The notes below the pieces were generated by a model. The model was given only the letters and a program-made list of their open reading frames with translations, was not told the DNA's origin and searched no databases. From an uncultured Lentisphaerales bacterium (GTDB lineage Bacteria > Verrucomicrobiota > Lentisphaeria > JABSQK01 > UBA12247), in contig CALSSJ010000021.1 in NCBI GenBank assembly GCA_943788985.1, positions 1 through 64,000 of the forward strand: 64,000 bases of DNA, written 5' to 3'. The position numbers and the translations under genes were made by a program. The stretch's first letter is position 1; every line of letters starts with the position of its first letter. Below, one piece after another: positions 2,562-58,294 of this stretch.

Positions 2562-5500
2562 TCAGGGGGCGCCTGGCGAAAAGACGCCGCCGCTGGCGAC
2601 GGTAACGGTGCCGCCGATGGTGCCGGTGCCAGCAAGGGTGCCGCCGCTGGAGGACGTTGACGTCGCCGCTACCAGTTGTGCCAGTGACCGATAGTGTGCC
2701 GGCGCTGACCGTGGTTGTGCCGCTGTTGGTGCTGGTACCACTGAGGGTCTGGGTGCCGCTGCCAACTTTGGTAATACTGGTCGTGTTGTTGGTGCCGTCA
2801 GCAATCTCGCCAGAGAAGGTGCCGTCGTTGCCGGTATTGCCCAAGGTTACCAATGCTGTCCCGCCAGCAGTGCCATAGTTGCCCACGATGATGCCGGCTC
2901 CGTTCAAAACGCCCATCTGAAAGGTGCTCGCCAGGCTGGATTCGTTGGCCCAACCGATTCCGTTGCCTCCCTTGAGTTCCATGGTGCCATTGACTTCGAT
3001 ATCCGCATTCTGAAGCCCCGTGGTGTTGCCGCTGACGCCGATTCCGCTGCCGGAGTACGCGGTGGTACTGGCGATGCCGTTGACAATCAACGTGCCGGCA
3101 AAGGTCGAGTTGTTGTTACGTAGATTCACACCGCTGCCAGCATGGGTGGTGTTGATCGTCACTGTGGCAGTGGTGTCACCTCCCGTGCTCTTGAGCCCGC
3201 TGTCCGGATAGAACCCGCGCCCAGCTGCGGCAGTCGCATTGGAGGTATGATTGATCGTGACGCTTGCGCCAGTATCCACCGTGGTCGCAGCAGATGCCCC
3301 GTTGAAAACGAGCCATTGGTTCGGATTAGTATTCTGCAAGGTCGAGCCATCCTTGAGCAGGATGGTTTTGCCTGCCTGGGAATTTTGCAGATTCGTTGTG
3401 TGCGTCCAGGTAAGGATTGCACCGCTTTCAACCGTGGTCGCAGATTTGTAGTTGCTCGCTCCACTGAGGATTAATTCACCAGAGTTAATGGCGGTCGCAC
3501 CGGTATACTTGATCTGGCCGCCCTGAAGTGTCTGGTTGCCAGCCCCGGTCATATTCACCGTTACGGCCATGGTTCCGCCGCCACCCCAGGCGTTCCACAG
3601 GTAGCCGTTGAATACGTAGGCGCCAGAGCCGACCAGATTCACCGTGCCGGTGCCAGAATTGCTTGGTGTAATGCCGCCGAAGGAGGTGGCGGAGTTTGCA
3701 ATCATCAGGTTATCCTGACTGGTGCTGTCGATGCCTGCCCAGTGACTGGGTTGTGCCATTGAGGGCGAAGGCGGGCAGGCCGCCCTGGGTGCGGTCTCCC
3801 GAGAGCACGGTGTTGGCGCTGCCGAGCTGATTGTCGAGTGTAGGCCAGACGCGCGCGGAATTCGAGGAGTCCGAGTAGATGGCCAAGTTCCCGGGCACTG
3901 CCACGGCGCCCCCGGTCTTACTGAGCGTGAGGCTTCCCCCGTTGATTGTCGTAGTGCCGCTGTGGGTATTGGAAGTCGCACCCGAAAAAATGAGTGTAGC
4001 GAACCCATTCTTGGTGAAGTTTCCGGTCCCCCCCAATGGCACCGCTGATCGTGAGCGTTCGGCGGCCCAAGCTGTTGCCGTTGTCTTCAAAGCGTGGCGA
4101 ACCGGTCAGGGTGATGTCACCGGAGATTGAATGGGTGCTTGTGTTACCGGCACCCCAGTAGTTGCGGAACCGGGCGTTGTCGTCGAAGGCCATGGGGCTG
4201 GTGAAGCTGTGACCGCTGGCCCAGGTCATAATCTCTGCGTTGGTCATGACATGGACGTCATTGGCGGCGTTGGCCAATGCTGCATTGCCAAAGCCCAGCC
4301 ACTGCCCGGTATACACTGTCAGTGTGTCGATGTTGCTGGCACTGCCGGACCAGTTCCACCAGTTTTCGGTGCCGACTTTGATCAGGTTGAAGCCGCCACC
4401 GTTGATCGTGGCAGAGTTGTCGATGCGTCCGCCACCGCCGCCAATCTCCGCATCCGCTGCCAGGGTAATGGTGCTTCCGCCGGCAAATGAGGTACTATTC
4501 GCGGTGCTGTACAGGGCACCACGGCCGCCAGCGCCGTCGCGGCCGGTGCCGCTGATGGTAAAGTTCTCACCGGAGGTCGGGTCAAAGCTGGCGCCGTCTA
4601 GCTCTGCGCCGCTGCTGACCGTGGTCGCGCCAGCGGTCGAGCCGAGGGCAGAATTGTTCCCCAGTTTGAGAACGCCGCCGTCCACCGTGGTGCCGCCAGA
4701 GTAGGTATTGCTGCCGGAGAGGGTGAGCGTGCTGGAGTTGTCCTTTGTCAGCGTGCCCGTGCCACTGATTACGCCACTCATGGTTTGGTCGGCGCTGCTG
4801 TTGTAGACGAAGGCAAAGTTGTTGGCAATGGTGTTGGCGTAACTGCCGCTTTGCAACGTGCCCGAGCCGCCGATCTTGAGTGTCCCGGCACTAATGCTCC
4901 AAGGCGCGGTGTCAGTATTGGTGCCAGTCAGTTCCATCGTACCGGCACCTGCCTTAGTGATCAACCCTTCCCAGTTGGGTCTGATGCTGGATGAAATCAG
5001 CAGATCCGTTCCCGAGCCTGCCACCGTATCTTCTACCGTGACGGTTTCTGCAAAAGCAAAGCCAATCCTATTCGCGTTGATTGTCGCCAGGCCAGTCCCT
5101 GTCACGTTAATGCCATTGTTGTAGAGGAAGCCGCCAAACCCCGAATTTCCGTCTGCTGCGCCCTCCGAGGTCATCGTTCCTCCATTGTTAAAGGTGATGG
5201 CTGCGCTGACGGTGTGTACCAGGTCAGCAGTGGAATTGTCTGAATAGGTTCCGCCATTCTGGATCGTGAGAGCGGTGAGACCGTCCATCGCGTTGTGGCC
5301 GGACGCGGACAGTTTGGCAGTTCCGGTGCCGTCCACGGTAAGGGCGCCGGACAAGATATCGTCTCCCACCAAGTCCAACGTACCGGCATTGACGAGTGTG
5401 CCGGAGCTATAGGTATTGGCGCCCGCCAGCGTTAGCGTGCCCGCACCAGTCTTTGTGGTGAGGGTACTGCCGCCAAAGATGACGCCATTGACGGTAAGGT

Positions 5501-49524: not shown

Positions 49525-50188
49525 GCGTGGAGCGTCCCGTCACGCAACGTGAGCACGCGGCCCATTCGCTCCGCCAAGTCCGCTGCGTGCGTGACCACGA
49601 CCAGGGTTAGGCCCATCTCCCGATTCAGCGACACCAGCAAGTCCACCAATCGCAGCGGAAGAATCGTGATCCAGCGATCCCGTCGGCTCGTCTGCCAGCA
49701 ACAACGCAGGTTGGTTAATGAGAGCACGCACCACCGCGACCCGCTGGCATTCCCCGCCGGACAACTGCGCCGGTCGATACGCCAACCGATGGTCCAACCG
49801 GACCTGCGCGAGCAGCTCCTGCGCTCGTTCCCGTGCGCCCTCCCCTGCCCGCGCCGGTACAGTCGGGATGAGTACATTCTCGAGCACTGAGAGGTGCGGG
49901 AGCAGATGGTGCCGTTGAAAGGACAAAGCCGATCTTGCGGCAGCGCGTTGCTGCCCGCTGCTCCTCTGACCAGCCCGCACACGACTCGCCCTCGAGCGAC
50001 ACGGATCCAGTCGTGGCCTGATCAAGCAAGCCCACGATGTTCAACAGCGTGCTCTTGCCGCAGCCGGATGGCCCCATGATCGCAACGGTCTCCCCAGGGT
50101 CAATCGAGAGGTCAACTCCACTCAGAATCTGCTGCTCACTCTGCGGATACTGCTTCGTAACCTGCGTCGTCTCTAGAATCGCAGGCAC
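49521..50188 (-). CDS. ABC transporter ATP-binding protein (LolD-like), two frameshifts
   Basis: [32 protein letters not shown] and VVVTH lie in three frames. Confidence 0.88.
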
Positions 50189-50190
50189 GA

Positions 50191-50773
50191 TCAGACCAGA
50201 TCGCAGGCGTCCGCAGGCATCCAGTGCCGCTCCTTGCCCCACCACTTGACGTTGCAGCCGATCGGGTTCGTCTTGGGCACAGTCACTTCCTGGCCCGCCA
50301 GCACGGCGTCTACGGCATCACGCAGCTCATTAGTAGTTGCCTCAGAGGCGACCCGCGGCTGATCATCCATACGACCTGTATAGCGCAGTTTACGGTCTGC
50401 ATCAAACACGTAGTAGTGCGGAGTTCGCAACGCCCCATAGGCCGTGGCTACGTCCTGGCTATCGTCGCGCAGGTACGGGAATGGGAAGTTCAAATCCTCC
50501 GCGCGGTGCTGCATGTGCTCCATCGAATCGGTCGGGTGGCCGTCGGTTTCGTTCGAGTTGATCGAGACGAACGCCACGCCCCTTGGCTGCGTAGCCCGCA
50601 GAAAACGCGATCATGCGCTCCTCGGAGCCGGTGACAAAGGGACAATGATTGCAGGAAAACACCATCACCAACACGGCTTGGTCTGCGAAGTTCGCAAGTG
50701 AGTAATTCTTGCCATCGGTGCCAGGCAGTGAAAAGTCCGGCGCCGTCTCGCCGAGATCCAGAGTAAAGGCCAT
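50191..50773 (-). CDS. Thioredoxin-fold redoxin (AhpC/TSA family), frameshift near 50582
   Basis: APDFSLP, CNHCPFV; INSN, FPYL.D, RTP, Y.GRMDD, GCNVKW. Confidence 0.88.
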
Positions 50774-51194
50774 CGTTGTTCTCCGTGAAGGTCTTGCGTG
50801 AGTACATGTGCGGAAAACTACTGCCGACCATCGCATATACAACGGACGCCCAGACCAACAGCTGTTGGCGAGGCGATAAAGTGCGCCCCAAGCGGCACGA
50901 GGCGGTGCTGACAAATTCTTCCGCCACACCGTAGGGCTAGCAGTGCATACTCAACATGGTGCCCCCAGAGCAGCGCTGATTCTTCTTTTCTTTTTTGGGG
51001 GATGCAAATCTTGTATGCCTCGGAAAGGCGCGACCTCCAGCACTCCCGGCCGCGTACCATGTTCTAGCCATGGGCACGGGCAAGGGAGATACAGAAGAGT
51101 CCGAATCGTAATTGCACCTCCAACCGCTGCTGGCGAGCTGCAACGCAGGTGATACGGGTAAAGACTTTTCAGAAATCCAGGCAGAGAACTAGGC

Positions 51195-52295
51195 ATGGCC
51201 CAACAGTCACATATTCTGACCGTAGTCGGCGCACGGCCACAATTCATTAAAGCCGCCGTAATCAGCCGCGCCGTCGCGCAGACCCCCGCCTTGCGCGAGA
51301 CGATCATCCATACCGGCCAACACTATGACGACAACATGTCGCGCGTGTTCTTTGATGAGCTGGAGATTCCCGCCCCAGGCTTCAACCTCGGCGTTGGCAG
51401 CGGCTCGCACGGCGCCCAAACCGGCGAGATGCTGGCACAGCTCGACGCGCTTTACCAGGAGCAGAAGCCGGACTTTGTCCTGCTATATGGCGACACCAAC
51501 TCCACCTTGGCAGGCGCCCTGGCCGCGGCCAAACTGCACATCCCGGTTGCCCACGTCGAGGCAGGCCTACGCTCCTTTAACCGCCGCATGCCCGAAGAAG
51601 TGAATCGCGTCCTGACCGATCACGTCTCGGACCTGCTGTTCTGTCCGACCCAACCTGCCGTAGACAATCTCCTCGCTGAGGGTATTACCAATGGCGTCAG
51701 CCTCGTCGGCGACGTCATGTATGACAGCACCTTGTTCTCGCAGCAGAAAGCTACCGAGCGTATCGAGCGAGTGCTGGGGCCACTGGGCGTCCAGCCCAAG
51801 AGCTATCAGATTGCCACGGTTCACCGCGCCGAGAATGTTGCGGACTCCGCAAAACTCGCTGCGATCTTCGCAGCGATGGACGAGATTTCCACGCCTGAAG
51901 CGCCAACGCTGCTGCCGTTGCATCCAGGCTGTCGCCGCGCGCTCGAAACCCACGGCATCGTGCCAGGCCAGAATGTGCGATTACTAGATCCACAATCCTA
52001 TCTTGACATGGTCGCACTGCTGTCTCAGGCGCGCCTCGCCCTGACCGACTCGGGTGGCCTGCAGAAAGAAGCGGCTATCTTCGATGTGCCCTGTGTGACG
52101 CTGCGAGACGAAACCGAGTGGGTCGAGACTGTCGAAGCAGGTCGAAACTGCGTGGTCGGTGCTGCCACTGTGCGCATCGTCGAAGCCGCCCAAGCCTATC
52201 TGCGCGCCGGCATCCCTCCCTGGACGCCGCCGTACGGATCCGGCAATGCAGGTTCGCTCATCTGCGAGCAATTGGTGGCCACCTGTGCCCGCTGA
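51195..52295 (+). CDS. wecB: UDP-N-acetylglucosamine 2-epimerase (non-hydrolysing)
   Basis: GARPQFIK, HTGQHYD, GDTNST, HVEAGLRS, PEEVNR, TDSGGLQKEA. Confidence 0.95.
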   Translation: MAQQSHILTVVGARPQFIKAAVISRAVAQTPALRETIIHTGQHYDDNMSRVFFDELEIPAPGFNLGVGSGSHGAQTGEMLAQLDALYQEQKPDFVLLYGDTNSTLAGALAAAKLHIPVAHVEAGLRSFNRRMPEEVNRVLTDHVSDLLFCPTQPAVDNLLAEGITNGVSLVGDVMYDSTLFSQQKATERIERVLGPLGVQPKSYQIATVHRAENVADSAKLAAIFAAMDEISTPEAPTLLPLHPGCRRALETHGIVPGQNVRLLDPQSYLDMVALLSQARLALTDSGGLQKEAAIFDVPCVTLRDETEWVETVEAGRNCVVGAATVRIVEAAQAYLRAGIPPWTPPYGSGNAGSLICEQLVATCAR

Positions 52296-53104
52296 CGACT
52301 TGGTTTTTGCGGAGTCCGCAAAACCCAAAAGTAAAAGACGCCGTTAAGCTACGGAATCGCCGCCATCGTGACCGCACAGACCGCACGCTCATCGAAGGCT
52401 ATCGTGAGCTGCGCCAGGCGCTGACGCACGGGATTCGCCCAGAAAGCCTGTTCTACTGCCCGGAGTATTTCTTAGGCGACAACGAGGCTGAACTGCTGCG
52501 GCTTGCGGAGGTCCGCAGGCGCGCGGCTACTGCAGACCGACACACGGGTATTCGATCGGCTTTTCGTGCCGCGAGCGCCCGGACGGCCTGCTCGGCATTG
52601 CCCCACTGATGGGACGCGAGCTGGCTGAGATGCCGACTGGCGACCCGCCGTTTTTACTGATTGCCGAGGCGATCGAGAAGCCGGGAAATCTGGGCGCGAT
52701 TCTGCGTTCAGCCGACGGCGCGGGGGGCAGACGGCGTGATCGTCTGCGATCGCACCACCGACATCAACAATCCAAATGTCGTGCGCGCGAGCATCGGCAC
52801 ACTATTCTCGGTCCCAGTTGCGGAGTCCGCAACCGTCGATGTGCTGGCCTGGCTGCGGGAGCGCGGCATTCGCTCGGTAGCAGCAACACCTGCGGCGACC
52901 AAGCACCACTGGGAAGTGGATATGACCGGACCGATTGCGGTGGTCGTCGGCAGCGAGCAGTACGGGCTCACGGATGCTTGGTTGGAGGCGGCAGATGAAT
53001 CAGTACGCATCCCAATGCTCGGCGCTGCCGACTCCCTGAATGTAGCGACAGCTGCGACCTTGATGGTCTACGAGGTGGTCCGCCAGAGAATGGCACAAGC
53101 TTGA
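52285..53104 (+). CDS. TrmH/SpoU RNA methyltransferase, several frameshifts
   Basis: NPKVK, LIEG, EKPGNLGAILRSA, VVRASIG, VGSEQYGL, IPMLG..DSLNV. Confidence 0.88.
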
Positions 53105-53234
53105 TTCGTACCGCGTGCAGCGTGAAAGTGCCATCCGGTGCTACCTGAACCGAGCCCCGTTGATGAAGACGCGACGGGCGTCGTCTAAGGGCGGCTGGCC
53201 GTGGAGGAGGAGTGCAACGAAGAAAAGAAGGATG

Positions 53235-53974
53235 GAACCACTAAATTTCACTAATCTTCACTAACTCCAGGGTCTGGGGTTGAGCGTGTTTTGTTCATTG
53301 TGGCTAGTGGTTCGGATTCTCTTCGGGGGCAGGATGGGCAGCAGGCGCCAGTTTGTTCATTAGTGTGGATTAGTGAAAATTAGTGGTTTGCTCTTCTTTT
53401 CTCTTTGCCGCTCAACCATTAGTCGCTGACATATCGTTTCCATTCCAGCTTGCTAGGATTACCAAAGTTGATCAGGTAGCCCACTGGCTTGCCGGTCGCT
53501 TTGAGGTAGTTCAGGATCTGGGCGGCTTCGACCTTGGAGAGGGCTTTCAATGCTTTCAGTTCGACAACAATTCCATCGCTCACATAGAGATCCGGCCGAT
53601 ACCGCTTCTGCAACTCCTGGCCCTTATACACGATCCGCAACTGCGGCTGGGACTCAAAATCGATCTGTCGGCTGCGAAGCTCCAATTCCAAGGCCTCTTG
53701 ATAGACATCTTCAAGGAAACCCGGCCCCAAGGTATTGTAAACCTCGAATGCCGCCGCCATCAGATCATAGCCCTCTTGCTCATACGCCATAAAAATTAGT
53801 GCCAATTAGTGAAAATTAGTGGTTCGTATTCTGGCTGTAAGCAGGCCGTGAAGGGGGAGCAGGAAGAAGAGAAGAAAATGGAACCACTAATTTTCACTAA
53901 TCTTCACTAATGAATCAATCCACATATATCAGGCCCTTCTTACATTAGTGAAGATTAGTGAAAATTAGTGGTTC
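53235..53974. repeat. Five 30-bp repeats (consensus GAACCACTAATTTTCACTAATCTTCACTAA) in both orientations around the GxxExxY gene
   Basis: Forward at 53235-64 and 53881-910; reverse at 53360-89, 53796-825 and 53945-74. Confidence 0.93.
53419..53790 (-). CDS. GxxExxY protein (PD-(D/E)xK nuclease superfamily)
   Basis: GPGFLEDVY, YRPDLYV, VVELKA, QILNYLKAT, GYLINFG. Confidence 0.93.
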   Translation of the reverse strand: MAYEQEGYDLMAAAFEVYNTLGPGFLEDVYQEALELELRSRQIDFESQPQLRIVYKGQELQKRYRPDLYVSDGIVVELKALKALSKVEAAQILNYLKATGKPVGYLINFGNPSKLEWKRYVSD

Positions 53975-54147
53975 GCATTCTGGCTGTGGCTGGCTGTGGC
54001 TGGCTGTGAAGGTGGAGTAGGAAGAGTTTGATAAGTCGAGGCAGCGTAAATGTTCCAGTGGAATACCCTAAGAATGTTAGATCTGCCGTGACATTCAGCC
54101 AGCAGCCCTATCCTTAATTGCCTCCGGCTGTTTGCCAGTGGATATAC

Positions 54148-55095
54148 CTATTCCTTCACTGGGGCGCGAAGCGTGCGGTCGACTGGCCATGGGGCGCCTT
54201 CGGCGATCCACTGCTTAATCAGGGCGCTTTCCTCGGCCCTAAGGGGCTCGCCCTTAGCGGGCATGATGTCGTCGTGGTCGGCGTCGAGAATGGTCAGCAG
54301 ATACAGTGGGCTTTCGTCGGGCTTGCCCGGCACGAGTACGGCATCGAAATCGGGGCCCCGGTCGAGGGCAAAGCGCGTGTGCATGCTGAGGTCGCCCTTG
54401 TCCTTCTCAGGATTGTGGCACTGGAGGCAGCGGCGTTCGAGAAGCGGGGCGATGTCACGGTCAAAATTCACCGTAGCTTGTTCGACGGCTTCGGCCGGTT
54501 CTGAATCCTTTCGCTGGCTTGTGGCGGCAGGCTGTTTCTCCATGACGGCAGCCACGGGCGATGTCTTGACGGCAACGGGTCTGGGCGGTGGCCGCATCAG
54601 ATCGACGCAAAATTTGATGGCAACTGCGAGTAGGATGAGCAGCATGGCCTCGGCAAAGCGCCAGGTCCCGCTCGCTGCAGGCTGCGCCTTGAGCGCCGGC
54701 ATGGCTGGCTTCGGTGCCGCAGACTTTCGGCGTGACTTTAGGACTGTTCTCTTTGCGGTTTTTGCCTTATCGATCTTGTCCACGGCGGTGGGAGGGGCCT
54801 CTTCCGCTACCTCGTACCAGATGTCCTCCCCCTCGTAACCGAGCTGAAAGCGCTCGCTGGGCGCAATCCCGTAGGGGCCAGCGATCTTGTGGGTGTCGAT
54901 GTAGACGCCATTGGTAGAGGCTAGGTCATCGACGAAGATTCTTCCAGAACGTAGAAATATAGTGGCATGGTGCGAGGAAGCGCTAGCGATGCCCACCGTC
55001 AGAGTAGCAGCCTGGTCACGCCCGATTGTGGCGCGATCTTTGCTAAGATCTACAGTGACCTTGGCCCCGCTACCGGCTACTAGCTCGACAATCAA
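54148..55095 (-). CDS. FHA domain, TM helix and planctomycete-type cytochrome c domain protein
   Basis: IGR, SSHHA, STNG (FHA); VNFDRDIAPLL..CLQCH, MP, WIAEGA. Confidence 0.85.
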   Translation of the reverse strand: MIVELVAGSGAKVTVDLSKDRATIGRDQAATLTVGIASASSHHATIFLRSGRIFVDDLASTNGVYIDTHKIAGPYGIAPSERFQLGYEGEDIWYEVAEEAPPTAVDKIDKAKTAKRTVLKSRRKSAAPKPAMPALKAQPAASGTWRFAEAMLLILLAVAIKFCVDLMRPPPRPVAVKTSPVAAVMEKQPAATSQRKDSEPAEAVEQATVNFDRDIAPLLERRCLQCHNPEKDKGDLSMHTRFALDRGPDFDAVLVPGKPDESPLYLLTILDADHDDIMPAKGEPLRAEESALIKQWIAEGAPWPVDRTLRAPVKE

Positions 55096-56352
55096 AACAG
55101 CGCGAGAACCGGCTTGCCGCCATTGGCGATGGTGAAGGGGCGACCAGACTTGGAATACAGTTCATGGGCAGGATCGATGCCGACCGCATGCGCGATAGTC
55201 GCGTTAAGATCTTTGACGCTAACGACCTTTTCTGCCACCGTCGCACCTCGTGAGTCGGTCGCACCGTAGACCTGCCCGCCCTGTACTCCGCCGCCTGCAA
55301 GCATGCAGGAAAAGGCCTTCGGATGGTGCCCCCGCCCATTGCCATCGTTAATCTCAGGGGTGCGGCCAAACTCACTTACTAGTACAACGAGGGTGTCTTC
55401 GAGCATGCGACGGCGGTGCAGGTCGTCCAAAAGCGTGCCGAGACCGGCGTCGAGTTGCTGGAGTTGCTTCTCGAGCCGCTCGAAGTTGTCGGTGTGCGTG
55501 TCCCAGCCGCCAAAGGTGACCTCGACAAATTTGATGCCATGCTCGACGAGTCGACGCGCAAGCAGGCAGCCCTGGCCAAAGTTATTCTTGCCATAGCGTT
55601 CGCGGAGGTTCTTGGGCTCACGGGCAATGTCAAACGCTTTGAGCTCGCTGGATTTCATGAGCTTCACGGCATCTTCGTAGGCCTGGGCGTACCCGTCCAC
55701 CTGGCGACTCTCGAAGCGGGAGTCGAACTTTGTGTTCAGGGTGCGAAGCAGCTGCATGCGATGCTCGAAGGTCCCTTCGTCCACGTGTGGCGGCGGCGAG
55801 ATGTTACTGAGGCCGGCTTCTGCGCGACTGATGCGCAGTGGTTCAAACTCTGGCTCGAAGAAGCCAGCGCCGATCGGATTACGAGCCCCAATATTGATGT
55901 TTCCCGGTAAGGTCTCGCTGTTCTTCCCAGAGAGTTTGAGCGCCCAGGCCCCCGAGTCCCGGATGCTGAATGGTGCCGAGCATTGGATAGCTGGTGCGCA
56001 TGAAATAGGAGCCACGCTCATGGCTGCCTTCCTTGGAGGTCATCGACCGGATTATCGCTGCGTGCTGCAGTTGTCGCGCAAGCAAGGGCAGTCGATCCGA
56101 GATCCGCTCGCCAGTGATGGAGGTGCGCATGGGAGCAAACTCGCCAGCAACCTCTTTATCCTGCTTGGGGTCTAGCGTGTCGAGATGGCTCATGCCGCCA
56201 GCCATGTACAGGTAGATGACGCGCTTGGCCTTTCCCCCGTGATCGGCCGCCTGCGCGGAAAAGCTGGAGAACAAGCCCACTCCTAGGCAGGCTTGGGCCA
56301 TGCCAGTAAGAAACTCGCGTCGGTCCAAGTCAGATGCTTTGGTTATATTCAT
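55092..56352 (-). CDS. DUF1501 family protein with Tat signal, frameshift near 55950
   Basis: DRREFL, GGMSHLDTLDPK, LLARRLVE.G, GGWDTH, SEFGRTP, GRGHHP. Confidence 0.9.
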
Positions 56353-56365
56353 GAGAGGCTCCGGA

Positions 56366-58294
56366 TTATTGAATAAACAGGAATTCGCGACTGTTCAGGA
56401 TCGCCCAGACCAGATTCTGGAGGCCTTCCCGGCCGCCATTGGCGTACTCAGTCCGAACCAGTTTGCGTTCATCGGCGGTGGGGCGGCGACTAAGCAAGGT
56501 GACGAACAGGCGATCGGCAAGCTCACTGCTGGAACACGCAAGTAAGGTCTTCATTAGCGGCATCTTTGCCTGGGTCAGGGTGCTGGACAGCTTGCCGTTC
56601 ATGAGCGCAAGCACCTGTGGGATACTGGGCTCGATGCTAGAGCCATTGATCACTTCGCGCTCGGATTGACCGAAGGCTTGGAGGAAGCCATCGTCTCGCC
56701 CTCCGCCAGGCCTCATCTCGGATGCTCGTGCTACAAACGGTCCATTGTTGCCTTTCGTTCGCCTCTTGCGCATCGTGCGATTGGCCTCCATCATCATGGA
56801 TCGCTTGGCCTTCATCGTATCGCGTACGGATTCGAGAATCTTCTCAGCGCTCATCTCGCTGAGGTCGGGCATGGCGGCCATCATTTCTGCTCCCTGTCTG
56901 CGATTGGGCCCAGCTTGCGCTCGTCCACGTCATCGCTCAACAGAGTCATGAATGAGTCCCAGAGCTGCTCGGCCCGCATTCTGCGCAGGGGGCGCGCCTG
57001 GGCGTAGTAATTCCGTGGTGTGATGGCGCTGGCAGAGACCGCGCTTTGGTAGGCCCGGGTGTTGCAGAGAATGCGGGTAAACTCGCGCATGTCATAGCCA
57101 ATGGTGGTAAAATCTCGGCCCAGCTGCGCCAGCAAGGCATCATCGATGGCCTCACTCTTGTCCTTGAAGTCGTCGATGGGCTCATGAATGGCTATTCCCA
57201 TCAGGCGCTTCCAGATCCGGTTTGCCATGACTGTCGCGAACCGCGGATTGTTCCGGTCAGTGAGCCAAGCGGCGAACGCTTCGCGGTGATTGTCATACTG
57301 ACTGAGCAGCGGCATAGTGCCAAAAATGACTTCTGGCACTGCTTTGCTATTTGGCTTCGCGTTGGCGTAGGCGTAGTCCTTGGGATAGCGGAGCGACTTG
57401 CGTTCGGCGGTGTGGACATTTAGCGTGATTTCGTTCAAAAAGCGCCGTATTGCAGCGTTCTCTTGGGGGCTGAGCTCCTCTTGCAGCTCACGCAACTTTT
57501 TCCGCTCGTTGCGATCGGCGAGCATATTCAGCCCACCACGGGTGTCGACTTCGCCAAAGAAGGCGGCAAACTGATAGAAATCTTTTTGCTTCCATTTGTC
57601 GAACTTGTGGTCATGGCACTGGGCGCACTGCAGCTGGGTGCCGAGAAAAACTTGTGCGGTCATGGCGGCAGTCTCAAGAATGCGGCCTCCGTCTCGGACC
57701 CAGTAGCCAACAGCACCATCGTCTAAAAGCCGTCCTTCGGCGGTCAGTAGCTCGCGAGCCATCTGATCGTATGGCTTGTTTTGCTCAATGGAATCCTTGA
57801 TCCACGCGGGATAGTTTCCAGCATCTCCGCGGATTGGCGCAGCCCGCAACAGGTCTGCCCAGAAATTGTAGGTGTGACTGACATAGGCTGGCGACGCCAG
57901 CAGAGTATCGATCAGGGCGCTTCGCTTGTCCGCAGAACTGTCATCCAGAAACGCTACGGCCTCGTCATGAGTGGGAATACGCCCGGCGAGATCGAGGTAG
58001 AGGCGACGCAGAAATTCTTGGTCGGTCACAAGACGTTCCTGCGTCAAGCCCTTGCGTTGGAGTAGCCCGGCCACAGTTTCATCGATCCTGCGACTAGCGG
58101 CTGGCTGGACGGATTGCATCCGCTTTGACTGGACAGCTTTTGCTTTCGCGGCCCGGCGCAGACGCCTCCTTGGCCGCGGAGTTCGCAACGGTTGGCACTG
58201 GCGAGGATGGGCCGAAGATTCTAGGCAGCCACAGCGATAGGCTGAAGATGACGATCACATAGAGGAGATAGAAGAGTGCTTTTCTCGAGTTCAT
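56366..58294 (-). CDS. DUF1549/DUF1553 (PSD1/PSCyt-type) protein, frameshifted near 58110 and 56885
   Basis: FLRRLYLDL.GR.PT, NKPYD, FLG.QLQCAQCHDHKFD, NRIW..LMG, AEQLWDS, WAILNSREF. Confidence 0.88.

What the first reader, a model, noticed from the sequence alone, without database searches (positions are those of the whole stretch)
53190..54025. GxxExxY nuclease gene inside a patterned repeat array: possible non-RAYT REP/BIME-like element
Seen: five copies of a 30-mer made of three 10-bp nnnnCACTAA units, ordered F, R, gene, R, F, R. The last pair forms a perfect 32-bp inverted repeat (53881-912 and 53943-74) around a unique 30-bp spacer. The first pair encloses about 95 bp containing a degenerate copy (tagtggttc, 53305-13). 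The gene's ATG starts 5 bp after one copy, and its stop codon overlaps a remnant (TAATGGTT). The linkers are also related: g(t/c)attctggctgt follows the reverse copies at 53826 and 53975, a ggc(c/t)gtg(a/g)agg-purine-rich segment occurs three times, and atg directly precedes both forward copies. The cassette is AT-rich and sits between convergent genes. Established: GxxExxY proteins are PD-(D/E)xK-fold proteins of unknown function, and REP doublets are spread by an adjacent HUH nuclease (RAYT). Inference: a nuclease-plus-repeat selfish or domesticated element with a different enzyme class.
Basis: partly seen in the sequence, partly recalled or inferred. Interest (0 to 1): 0.75.

Follow-up and report, generated by a model that had tools for sequence, protein, structure and literature searches.

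The report
Small nuclease gene cassette with repeat ends
A small nuclease gene of unknown function sits inside a nest of patterned repeats that recur, with or without the gene, across several bacterial phyla, and together they look like a compact, previously undescribed kind of mobile DNA.

Summary
The array is not unique. Many arrays form inverted doublets, and most lie away from any GxxExxY gene. GxxExxY is the only gene family that recurs beside them. Homologues chosen by protein alone carry the same architecture with other words (CACAGAG, CGCGAAG, CGCGGAT). Word type clusters on the protein tree rather than by host phylum. Two filled/empty comparisons (Sphingomonas fabD|fabG, Bacteroides radA junction) show a roughly 470-bp unit, repeat end-gene-repeat end, present in one species and absent in a relative. 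The protein is a cysteine-free Cas4/RecB-type PD-(D/E)xK nuclease with intact catalytic residues. Best reading: a nuclease-bearing, inverted-repeat-bounded cassette with gene-less MITE-like derivatives, lodged at operon junctions. It resembles REP/RAYT in logic but is not a member. Whether the nuclease moves the element is inferred, not shown.

The parts
53196..53234 (+). Purine-rich outer flank (type P) of array F1
   Evidence: Aligns with the flanks of F2 and of R1 on the other strand (A3; sequence).
53235..53264 (+). Array F1: GAAC followed by three CACTAA(T) words at a 10-bp period. It is the left outer end of the nest.
   Evidence: Exact pattern match. 97% complementary to R3 (I3).
53305..53320 (-). 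Truncated array: the last word, GGTTC, and a type-Q flank
   Evidence: Direct-repeat family D3; row 'remnant_rc' in A3.
53359..53389 (-). Array R1. On the gene strand it reads AAAC-CACTAATx3 and lies downstream of the gene's stop codon.
   Evidence: Exact pattern match; part of the 58-nt inverted repeat I1.
53390..53413 (-). Type-P flank of R1, between the array and the stop codon
   Evidence: (I1) and A3.
53419..53790 (-). GxxExxY gene, 123 aa: a Cas4/RecB-type PD-(D/E)xK nuclease core with no cysteine
   Evidence: PF13366 E 1e-42; TIGR04256. E27, D67, E77, K79, Q91 and Y95 are invariant in 56 sequences. AlphaFold2 mean pLDDT 96.0. Best solved folds are Cas4 SSO0001, lambda exonuclease and Hjc.
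53796..53825 (-). Array R2, which ends 5 nt before the ATG on the gene strand
53826..53838 (-). Type-Q flank (gtattctggctgt) containing one CACAGCC word
   Evidence: D1; A3.
53843..53880 (+). Type-P purine-rich flank of F2
   Evidence: I1; A3.
53881..53974 (.). Complete gene-less doublet: F2 (53881-53912), a 30-nt spacer, and R3 (53943-53974). R3 is also the right outer end of the nest.
   Evidence: Perfect 32-nt inverted repeat (I2); fold at -33.6 kcal/mol, z -14.3. Same form as 46 doublets in other genomes.
53975..54025 (-). Type-Q flank expanded to (CTGGCTGTGG)x3, which is CACAGCCx3 on the minus strand, followed by a purine-rich tail
   Evidence: Tandem Repeats Finder: period 10, 2.9 copies, 100% matches; A3.

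Best explanation
The region 53196-54025 is a nest built from one family of small mobile cassettes.

The basic unit, seen most cleanly in other genomes, has three parts: a terminal inverted repeat made of three phased 7-nt words (about 30 nt), a roughly 125-aa GxxExxY nuclease gene, and the inverted copy of the repeat. The whole unit is about 470 bp. Gene-less versions, two arrays facing each other across a short spacer, are its MITE-like derivatives. They are scattered through intergenic DNA.

In the window, a gene-bearing copy and two doublets (one perfect, one decayed) lie together. The nest is bounded by the 97%-matching outermost arrays F1 and R3.

Shown:
- The unit is present or absent as a block at conserved operon junctions.
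- The word arrays are conserved, while the 3-nt spacers between words are not.
- Copies within a genome resemble each other more than copies between genomes.
- Word type follows protein clade across phyla.
- The gene usually points the same way as the host operon and has no recognisable promoter of its own.

Inferred:
- The GxxExxY protein, acting as a dimer, recognises or cuts at the arrays or at the structure they form.
- Copying happens by break-and-repair or by a single-strand route that leaves no target-site duplication.
- Expression comes from read-through of the host operon.
- The doublets are moved in trans or decay in place.
For: By my tally of the record titles, these are 42 Verrucomicrobiota, 33 Planctomycetota, 9 Lentisphaerota, 4 Kiritimatiellota, 18 Bacteroidota, 13 other and 6 unnamed. 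Positions the pattern did not specify are also conserved in 158 unique arrays: AAC before the first word (66, 75 and 69%) and T after each word (69-75%).

**Doublets.** 57 of 151 exact arrays have an inverted partner (at most 3 of 18 mismatches) within 130 nt. In 46 unique doublets the words are kept, but the inter-word spacers agree between arms at only 2.7 of 6 positions, against 1.7 of 6 for unrelated doublets. 22 of the 46 agree at 2 or fewer positions.

**Within-genome similarity.** Spacers match at 5.8 of 8 positions within an assembly (195 pairs) and 2.6 of 8 between assemblies (12,051 pairs).

**Link to the gene.** Among 896 ORFs near arrays, the only family found in more than 3 loci is GxxExxY, in 7 loci. 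A profile search finds it in 10 of 125 loci, two of which overlap, plus one partial copy. Other neighbours are unrelated housekeeping or toxin-antitoxin genes.

**Family-wide architecture.**
- In 8 plasmid or chromid loci chosen by protein alone, 6 of 8 have arrays of at least 3 phased words within 220 nt, using other words. The background is 9 of 72 and 26 of 240 control windows.
- In 5 of those 8, the repeats shared between the upstream and downstream flanks exceed all 100 shuffles. Over all genes in hand the figure is 11 of 17.

**Filled and empty sites.**
- S. parapaucimobilis has fabD-[TTCACGCGAAGG...gene...CTTCGCGTGAA]-fabG; S. paeninsulae has fabD-30 nt-fabG.
- B. finegoldii has radA-[TTCACCACAGAGG...gene...CCTCTGTGGTGAA]-FAD gene; P. 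distasonis has radA-13 nt-FAD gene.
- Planctomycete L053 has the gene between moxR and DUF58, where L034 has only a doublet.

**Operon junctions.** Insertions lie at purS|purQ, moaE|moeA, ribF|thiF and rmlD|. The upstream neighbour is on the same strand in 12 of 14 cases.

**Tree.** 5 of 6 CACTAAT-flanked proteins form one clade (support 99/98). An Opitutaceae protein with CACAAAG words groups with the Bacteroidota and Sphingomonas proteins that carry ...AG words. The label needs 2 changes on the tree against a shuffled mean of 5.1; 4 of 500 shuffles were as low.

**Protein.** The catalytic E, D, ExK and QxxxY residues are invariant. The fold is confident and Cas4/lambda-exonuclease/Hjc-like. 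25 of 150 representatives have two domains; in the 3 I read, the second domain lacks ExK. This points to a dimeric working unit.

**Longer homologues.** These are one-off fusions to unrelated enzymes such as LepA, RecG, RNase H and inositol monophosphatase. That is what read-through of a cassette lodged at a gene end would produce.

**Window context.** None of 19 ORFs scanned between 37 and 64 kb is a transposase or integrase.
Against: - No experiment or direct computation ties the protein to the arrays.
- 94 of 151 exact arrays have no partner at my threshold, and 21 belong to longer tandem runs that may be a different thing.
- 115 of 125 array loci show no GxxExxY gene in the DNA held, and 45 of those loci hold only about 300 nt per side. 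In the Akkermansia, Anammoxibacter and Alloprevotella assemblies, none of 5-6 loci each has the gene nearby. A host protein could therefore be the true binder.
- Some arrays sit at the same site in related species (L006/L062/L115, and the Alloprevotella loci). This speaks for retention rather than recent movement.
- No target-site duplication was seen at 46 doublets.
- The flanks of the filled/empty pairs are too diverged (about 74%) to fix the junctions to the base.
- The geometry of arrays around the gene varies: -> gene <- in L001, L081, L129, L131 and L133; <- gene -> in L053 and L054; mixed in the window.
- The tree has only 17 tips, and the CACTAAT group was found through its DNA motif.
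- A 123-aa RecB-type core has no obvious sequence-reading domain.
- Three of 17 genes (L040, L126, L130) show no triple array by my criterion.
Confidence: 0.55

Rival explanations
1. The arrays are operator or architectural sites for a conserved host DNA-binding protein. Three sites sit on one face of the helix, often as a palindromic pair. GxxExxY is an ordinary host gene that happens to be under this control. The association reflects regulation, not mobility.
For: The words are conserved while the spacers drift, as expected for protein-binding sites. Most arrays lie beside unrelated genes. Some are kept at the same site across species. The 10-bp phasing is exact.
Against: - Arrays are enriched just after stop codons (26 of 87 against 7.1% in controls) but not before start codons (14 of 87 against 11.1%).
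- In the window they lie between convergent genes.
- The repeat ends and the gene are gained or lost together at operon junctions.
- Word type follows the GxxExxY clade, not the host phylum.
- Spacers are homogenised within genomes.
- No second gene family recurs beside the arrays.
Confidence: 0.15
2. The repeats work at the RNA level. Inverted arrays in the operon transcript pair to form stems that terminate transcription, stabilise the RNA or are processed (for example by RNase III). This would insulate a read-through-expressed cassette, much as intervening sequences in rRNA are excised. Mobility would be secondary.
For: The gene is co-oriented with its upstream neighbour in 12 of 14 cases. 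No promoter-like site was found in 53050-54200. The F2/R3 pair folds very stably. Arrays cluster after stop codons.
Against: In 22 of 46 doublets the spacers between words are non-complementary at 4 or more of 6 positions, so the stems would be three 7-bp helices broken by internal loops. No Rfam family reaches its threshold: the best hit scores 35 bits against a gathering score of 230. The scan found one terminator-like site against 1.4 expected, and it is not in an array. This reading is compatible with the main explanation and is not exclusive of it.
Confidence: 0.12
3. The unit is an integron-type gene cassette and the doublets are attC-like sites recombined by a tyrosine recombinase encoded elsewhere in the genome.
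For: The ORF is small, promoterless and co-oriented. In planctomycete loci the layout is doublet-gene-doublet (L073, L054 and the window). The doublets end in AAC...GTT, which from memory recalls the integron R''/R' boxes.
Against: - None of the 19 ORFs scanned around the site is an integrase, and none recurs beside the arrays.
- The cassettes are single and scattered at housekeeping operon junctions, not arranged in arrays of diverse cassettes.
- Each arm has three equal words rather than distinct R and L boxes.
- Only one gene family is carried.
- An attC model could not be run here.
Confidence: 0.05
4. The nuclease gene and the repeats are independent intergenic passengers. The repeats would be MITEs of an unrelated transposon, and they merely accumulate in the same permissive AT-rich gaps as the gene.
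For: Most arrays lack the gene. The nest in the window looks like repeated insertions into one gap.
Against: The same word type lies on both sides of the gene, within 5-30 nt of the start and stop codons, in 8 of 17 genes with inverted geometry. The two blocks with matching ends are absent as a whole from relatives. Word type follows protein clade. No transposase recurs near the arrays.
Confidence: 0.08

Closest known systems
REP/BIME (REPIN) elements with their RAYT transposase
   Same: A short repeat spreads through intergenic DNA, often as inverted doublets. A single-copy or few-copy nuclease gene is flanked by the same repeat. Copies within a genome are homogenised. There is no target-site duplication.
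   Different: The enzyme here is a PD-(D/E)xK (RecB/Cas4-type) nuclease, not an HUH Y1 transposase. Each repeat is a direct triple of a 7-nt word, not a GTAG- or CGTC-tagged palindrome. The words are conserved across phyla.
MITEs and their parent insertion sequences
   Same: Gene-less elements of about 65-130 bp share terminal inverted repeats with a longer, gene-bearing element.
   Different: No target-site duplication was found. The parent encodes no known transposase family. The ends consist of three phased binding-site-like words.
Free-standing homing endonuclease genes, including the small PD-(D/E)xK enzyme I-Ssp6803I (recalled from memory, not checked here)
   Same: A small nuclease ORF is present or absent at an otherwise conserved site, in several phyla.
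   Different: Homing genes are not bounded by multi-word inverted repeats and do not leave gene-less repeat derivatives. The target sites here are varied operon junctions.
Cas4 / RecB nuclease domain / lambda exonuclease
   Same: These are the best structural matches, and the protein has the E...D...ExK...QxxxY motif set.
   Different: The protein has no cysteines, so it cannot carry the Fe-S cluster I recall as typical of Cas4 (sequence). It is only 123 aa. There is no CRISPR or recombination partner nearby.
Integron gene cassettes and attC sites
   Same: A compact, promoterless, co-oriented ORF lies next to imperfect palindromes.
   Different: There is no integrase, the cassettes are single and scattered, they carry one gene family, and each arm has three equal words.

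Membership tests
PF13366 PDDEXK_3 / TIGR04256 GxxExxY | Scores above the curated cut-off of the family profile | tested here: met
   Pfam 145.6 bits against a cut-off of 22; NCBIfam 142.5 bits against 35.
PD-(D/E)xK nuclease superfamily, RecB/Cas4 branch | Catalytic E (first helix), D, ExK and QxxxY residues, on the alpha-beta core fold | tested here: met
   E27, D67, E77, K79, Q91 and Y95 are invariant in 56 sequences. Model pLDDT 96.0. Foldseek: 4ic1 E 3e-5, lambda exonuclease and Hjc. Nuclease activity itself was not tested.
Cas4 | Four-cysteine Fe-S cluster and a cas gene neighbourhood (features recalled from memory) | tested here: not met
   The 123-aa sequence holds no cysteine. The neighbours are a SpoU methylase and an FHA/PSCyt1 protein.
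REP/RAYT (REPIN) system | The adjacent gene is an HUH Y1 transposase (RAYT) | tested here: not met
   The only gene inside the repeats is PF13366. Pfam scans of the flanking ORFs list no such family.
REP/RAYT (REPIN) system | The repeat is a 20-40-nt imperfect palindrome with a GTAG or CGTC tag | tested here: not met
   Each array is a direct triple of CACTAAT and carries no such tag. The definition was taken from passages of PMC3733652.
REP/RAYT (REPIN) system | Repeats are dispersed in intergenic DNA as inverted doublets, away from the enzyme gene | tested here: met
   Met in other genomes: 57 of 151 arrays are paired, and 115 of 125 loci show no gene. In the window's own genome this could not be tested beyond the 64 kb, which hold no other copy.
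MITE with an autonomous parent | Terminal inverted repeats shared between short gene-less copies and a gene-bearing copy | tested here: met
MITE with an autonomous parent | Target-site duplication | tested here: not met
   No consistent direct repeat flanks the 46 doublets.
MITE with an autonomous parent | The parent encodes a recognised transposase | tested here: not met
   The only ORF is the 123-aa PD-(D/E)xK protein.
Homing endonuclease gene | Alleles with and without the gene at a conserved site | tested here: met
   Two pairs between species and one planctomycete pair that differs in the gene but keeps an array.
Homing endonuclease gene | The enzyme cuts the empty allele | not testable with these tools
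   Needs a biochemical assay.
Integron cassette | attC site with R and L boxes, and an IntI integrase | tested here: inconclusive
   No integrase among the ORFs scanned. No attC model was available to score the doublets.
Known anti-phage defence systems (PADLOC) | Match to a defence-system protein model | tested here: not met
   0 families at E up to 0.01; no tblastn match in 50,697 phage records.

The most novel reading that the evidence does not exclude
GxxExxY genes, a family of about 15,000 clusters at 50% identity with no known function, are the engines of a previously unrecognised class of mobile element. Each element is a roughly 470-bp cassette whose only protein is a dimeric RecB/Cas4-type PD-(D/E)xK nuclease. 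The nuclease recognises three helically phased 7-nt words at each end. The cassette inserts without target-site duplication at operon junctions, is expressed by host read-through, and seeds families of gene-less palindromic doublets across the PVC superphylum, Bacteroidota and beyond. Nuclease specificity and end words co-evolve.
Probability: 0.35. Interest if true: 0.85.

Novelty: new variant of a known kind. Interest (0 to 1): 0.72.

Why it matters
PF13366/GxxExxY is large: 15,002 representatives at E up to 0.001 among 1.84 billion. My searches found no functional study. 'GxxExxY' occurs in 3 papers and only in passing. 'PDDEXK_3/PF13366' occurs in 2, one of which lists its function as unknown.

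If the cassette reading is right, it would do several things:
- explain why these genes sit as single small ORFs inside conserved operons;
- explain a cross-phylum family of intergenic palindromic doublets;
- add a nuclease-only element to the short list of repeat-plus-enzyme systems (REP/RAYT), with a different catalytic fold and iteron-like ends;
- give a concrete, cheap experiment (protein plus a 30-nt array) for a protein family that has had none.

It also matters for annotation and assembly, because read-through 'fusions' to housekeeping enzymes are probably artefacts of these insertions.

Tried and rejected
- **Known RNA family:** none. The best Rfam hits are microRNA hairpin models far below their gathering scores.
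- **Solved structure by sequence:** none; the only hit has E 0.071 and is spurious.
- **CRISPR-like spacers, or phage or plasmid origin:** the whole 836-nt cassette has no blastn match in the phage or plasmid collections.
- **Promoter role:** no sigma-70-like site, and arrays are not enriched before start codons.
- **Conserved mini-ORF from the ATG before F1 and F2** (MEPL(N/I)FTNLH): rejected, because the ATG is not conserved in 158 arrays.
- **Second array elsewhere in the window:** the CACTAA/TTAGTG pair at 4889/4954 is two chance single words. A whole-window scan for phased words gave only loose coding periodicities outside 53238-54008.
- **Base-level junctions for L053 against L034:** the flanks are too diverged for DNA alignment.
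- **Empty sites for Prevotella (L132) and Bernardetia (L133):** none found in the plasmid collection.
- **Homodimer prediction:** There is no result either way.
- **Papers:** searches on MITEs, restriction-endonuclease-like proteins, and intervening-sequence proteins found nothing on this system. Two searches failed on term format.
Full report
**1. The observation**

Reading 52900-54300 and searching the window for CACTAAnnnnCACTAAnnnnCACTAA gives five exact matches, at 53239 (+), 53360 (-), 53796 (-), 53885 (+) and 53945 (-). There are none elsewhere in the 64 kb, and 100 shuffles gave a mean of 0.00.

The repeat finder confirms the rest of the description:
- a perfect 32-nt inverted repeat, 53881-53912 / 53943-53974, around a 30-nt spacer (I2);
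- the first pair, with 95 nt between its arms (I6);
- a truncated copy at 53305-53320 (D3);
- the shared linker after two reverse copies (D1).

A 58-nt, 81% inverted repeat brackets the gene (I1). The outermost copies, F1 and R3, are 97% complementary (I3).

The gene (53419-53790, minus strand) is PF13366 (E 1e-42) and TIGR04256 GxxExxY. Its ATG lies 5 nt from an array. GC is 0.486 in the region against 0.578 for the window. The neighbours are convergent: a SpoU methylase and an FHA/PSCyt1 protein. Planctomycete-type domains (DUF1501, DUF1549/1553, PSCyt1) point to a planctomycete genome.

**2. The array is not private to this locus**

My tally of the record titles gives 42 Verrucomicrobiota, 33 Planctomycetota, 9 Lentisphaerota, 4 Kiritimatiellota, 18 Bacteroidota, 13 others (Nitrosomonas, Nitrospinia, Acidobacteriota and so on) and 6 unnamed.

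Positions that the pattern left free are conserved in 158 unique arrays. AAC (or GGAA) precedes the first word at 66, 75 and 69%, and a T follows each word at 69-75%. The real word is therefore CACTAAT, and the array has a defined outer end.

A minority of hits are probably something else. 21 of 151 arrays belong to longer tandem runs such as (CACTAAGACA)n in one Lentisphaerae assembly.

**3. Doublets, and what is conserved in them**

57 of 151 exact arrays have an inverted partner (at most 3 of 18 mismatches) within 130 nt, with the AAC ends facing outward. The gaps cluster at about 7-65 nt.

In 46 unique doublets the words are kept, but the 3-nt spacers between words agree between the two arms at only 2.7 of 6 positions. 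Unrelated doublets agree at 1.7 of 6. 22 of the 46 agree at 2 or fewer positions. Selection therefore acts on 7-nt words set one helical turn apart, not on hairpin complementarity. That is the signature of sites for a protein.

Spacers are much more alike within an assembly (5.8 of 8; 195 pairs) than between assemblies (2.6 of 8; 12,051 pairs). This is expected if copies multiply or are homogenised within a genome.

Arrays lie just after stop codons more often than random positions do (26 of 87 against 7.1%), but not before start codons (14 of 87 against 11.1%). No consistent target-site duplication flanks the doublets.

**4. The gene link**

I clustered 896 ORFs lying within 600 nt of arrays. 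The only family present in more than three loci was GxxExxY, in 7 loci. tblastn and a profile search find it in 10 of 125 loci; L004 and L005 overlap, and L029 is cut off.

Pfam on 70 other array-adjacent ORFs gave unrelated families: ParE, PIN, SufE, TatA, EPSP synthase, OMP decarboxylase, MoaE and others. Where the gene is present, arrays lie within 5-110 nt of its ends. Most arrays therefore stand away from the gene, as REP elements stand away from RAYT. The gene, when it is seen, is embedded in them.

**5. Is this a property of the family?**

tblastn against plasmids found 8 records, all large non-mobilisable replicons or contigs. It found none in phages. These 8 loci were chosen by protein alone.

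- 6 of the 8 have arrays of at least three phased words within 220 nt, but with other words: CACAGAG (Bacteroides, Bernardetia), CGCGGAT (Gemmatirosa), CGCGAAG (Sphingomonas), and TAATCC and ACAAATC types. The background is 9 of 72 and 26 of 240 control windows.
- In 5 of the 8, repeats shared by the upstream and downstream flanks beat all 100 shuffles. Over all genes in hand the figure is 11 of 17.
- An Opitutaceae gene 600 nt from a CACTAAT array (L060) is itself flanked by CACAAAG words.
- The outer ends are alike across word types: TTCAC-CACAGAGG, TTCAC-GCGAAGG, TTCAC-CACAAAGG, and (T/G)(T/G)AAC-CACTAAT.

**6. Filled and empty sites**

In Sphingomonas parapaucimobilis the unit lies between fabD and fabG. 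In S. paeninsulae those genes are 30 nt apart. The inserted block starts and ends with the inverted arrays, and its ORF reads through the downstream array to a stop 2 nt before fabG.

In Bacteroides finegoldii the unit lies between radA and an FAD-dependent gene and is bounded by TTCACCACAGAGG...CCTCTGTGGTGAA. In Parabacteroides distasonis the same genes are 13 nt apart. In Phocaeicola massiliensis an unrelated 225-aa ORF occupies the gap.

In two planctomycetes the moxR-DUF58 junction holds arrays plus the gene (L053) or a doublet alone (L034). The arrays are 97% identical although the flanks no longer align as DNA.

Other insertion points are purS|purQ, moaE|moeA, ribF|thiF and the 3' end of rmlD. 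The upstream neighbour is on the same strand in 12 of 14 cases where it could be identified. The exceptions are L054 and L004.

Sixty longer homologues are mostly one-off fusions to unrelated enzymes, among them LepA, RecG, RNase H, inositol monophosphatase and fucosidase. I read these as read-through of cassettes lodged at gene ends.

**7. Covariation**

On a 17-tip maximum-likelihood tree, 5 of 6 CACTAAT-flanked proteins form one clade (support 99/98). These come from a Verrucomicrobiota locus, three Planctomycetota loci and the window. The sixth (Ancylomarina, Bacteroidota) sits in the adjoining unresolved group, far from the other Bacteroidota proteins.

The proteins with ...AG words group together across Bacteroidota, Alphaproteobacteria and Verrucomicrobiota. 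The CACTAAT label needs 2 changes on the tree against a shuffled mean of 5.1; 4 of 500 shuffles were as low.

The sample is small, and relatives share labels. This supports the reading but is not decisive.

**8. The protein**

E27, D67, E77, K79, Q91 and Y95 are invariant in 56 sequences. This is the E...D...ExK...QxxxY set that I recall as typical of RecB-family nucleases.

The AlphaFold2 model is confident (pLDDT 96.0, pTM 0.88). Its best solved-structure matches are Cas4 SSO0001 (E 3e-5, TM 0.60 on the query), an uncharacterised restriction-endonuclease-like protein, lambda exonuclease and Hjc. The protein has no cysteine, so it is not a Cas4 proper. It matches no PADLOC defence model.

The family is large: 15,002 representatives at E up to 0.001. 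25 of the 150 best are two-domain proteins. All 5 that I scanned have two PF13366 stretches, and in the 3 I read the second domain has lost ExK. This suggests the working unit is a dimer, which fits inverted ends.

**9. Anatomy of the window's nest**

Read on the gene strand, the order is:
- R3 -> 30 nt <- F2 (a perfect doublet);
- a pyrimidine-rich leader;
- the solo array R2, ending 5 nt before the ATG;
- the gene;
- a purine-rich flank and R1 ->;
- 38 nt;
- a truncated array;
- 40 nt;
- <- F1.

Flanks come in two types, P (purine-rich) and Q (..cagccagaat.c) (A3). The Q flank at R3 carries (CTGGCTGTGG)x3. The planctomycete relatives L053, L054 and L073 share the layout of arrays, leader, gene, purine-rich flank and arrays. 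None of 19 ORFs scanned between 37 and 64 kb is a transposase or integrase.

**10. Reading**

The best-supported explanation is a cassette bounded by inverted repeats that carries a nuclease gene, with gene-less derivatives, nested here in a gap between convergent genes.

- Shown: block-wise presence or absence; conserved phased words; homogenisation within genomes; a gene-specific association; clustering of word type with protein clade; co-orientation with host operons.
- Inferred: that the nuclease binds or cuts the ends, how the element is copied, and that doublets move in trans.

The rivals are listed in their own section with their evidence: host operator sites, RNA-level stems, integron-type cassettes, and independent passengers.

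The system works like REP/RAYT or like a MITE with its parent element, but it fails the defining tests of both. It has no HUH enzyme, no tagged palindrome, no target-site duplication and no known transposase.

My searches found no description of it. 'GxxExxY' occurs in 3 papers, in passing; I read passages of one. 'PDDEXK_3/PF13366' occurs in 2, one of which lists the function as unknown in a passage I read. Three further searches found nothing relevant. The library misses most subscription journals, so this absence is not proof.

Noticed in passing
window 49540-50929, 52118-53104, 55092-58188: Several neighbouring genes appear split into overlapping ORFs: an ABC ATPase, an AhpC/redoxin-like protein, SpoU, DUF1501 (55092-56021 and 55879-56352), and DUF1549/DUF1553 (56366-56884 and 56881-58188). 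This suggests either frameshift errors in the assembly or pseudogenes.
   Followed up: partly
window 53980-54008: A perfect tandem (CTGGCTGTGG)x3 abuts array R3. On the minus strand it reads as three CACAGCC words at a 10-bp period, 18 nt out of register with the CACTAAT words. A single copy follows R2 at 53833-53838. It may show how word arrays grow by 10-bp duplication.
   Followed up: partly
L042 3001-3654 (Candidatus Anammoxibacter MAG): Four to five CACTAAT arrays, all in one orientation and 130-260 nt apart, are interleaved with CACAGAT/CACGGAT words and AAAAGC-rich stretches. This looks like a composite tandem repeat unit rather than doublets.
   Followed up: no
L010, L021, L119, L120 (one Lentisphaerae MAG): Long runs of (CACTAAGACA)n match the pattern but lack the AAC end and an inverted partner. 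They are probably a minisatellite of a different nature.
   Followed up: no
L132 (Prevotella nigrescens, record NZ_CP082843.1): Parts of the 2-kb region around this GxxExxY gene recur at 10 places in the same 568-kb record. The flanks hold several other short repeat families (ggatttggaaagattt, ctcggcgcagccgactgg).
   Followed up: no
P0183, P0198, P0212 and 22 other representatives: These are two-domain GxxExxY proteins of about 250-295 aa. In the three I read, the second domain has lost the ExK motif, so they are natural pseudo-dimers with one active site.
   Followed up: partly
L135 622-1299 (Phocaeicola massiliensis): At the same radA junction that holds the GxxExxY cassette in B. finegoldii, this species has an unrelated cysteine-rich 225-aa ORF with no word arrays.
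   Followed up: no
table: For 87 of 119 listed close homologues with a value, the longest contig is under 5 kb. This would fit repeats breaking assemblies, but there is no control for typical metagenome contig length.
   Followed up: no
L004 997-1266 and L008, L030: Toxin-antitoxin genes (ParE, PIN) lie beside arrays in three loci. The Nitrosomonas contig L004 mixes CACGAAT and CACTAAT words within single arrays.
   Followed up: no
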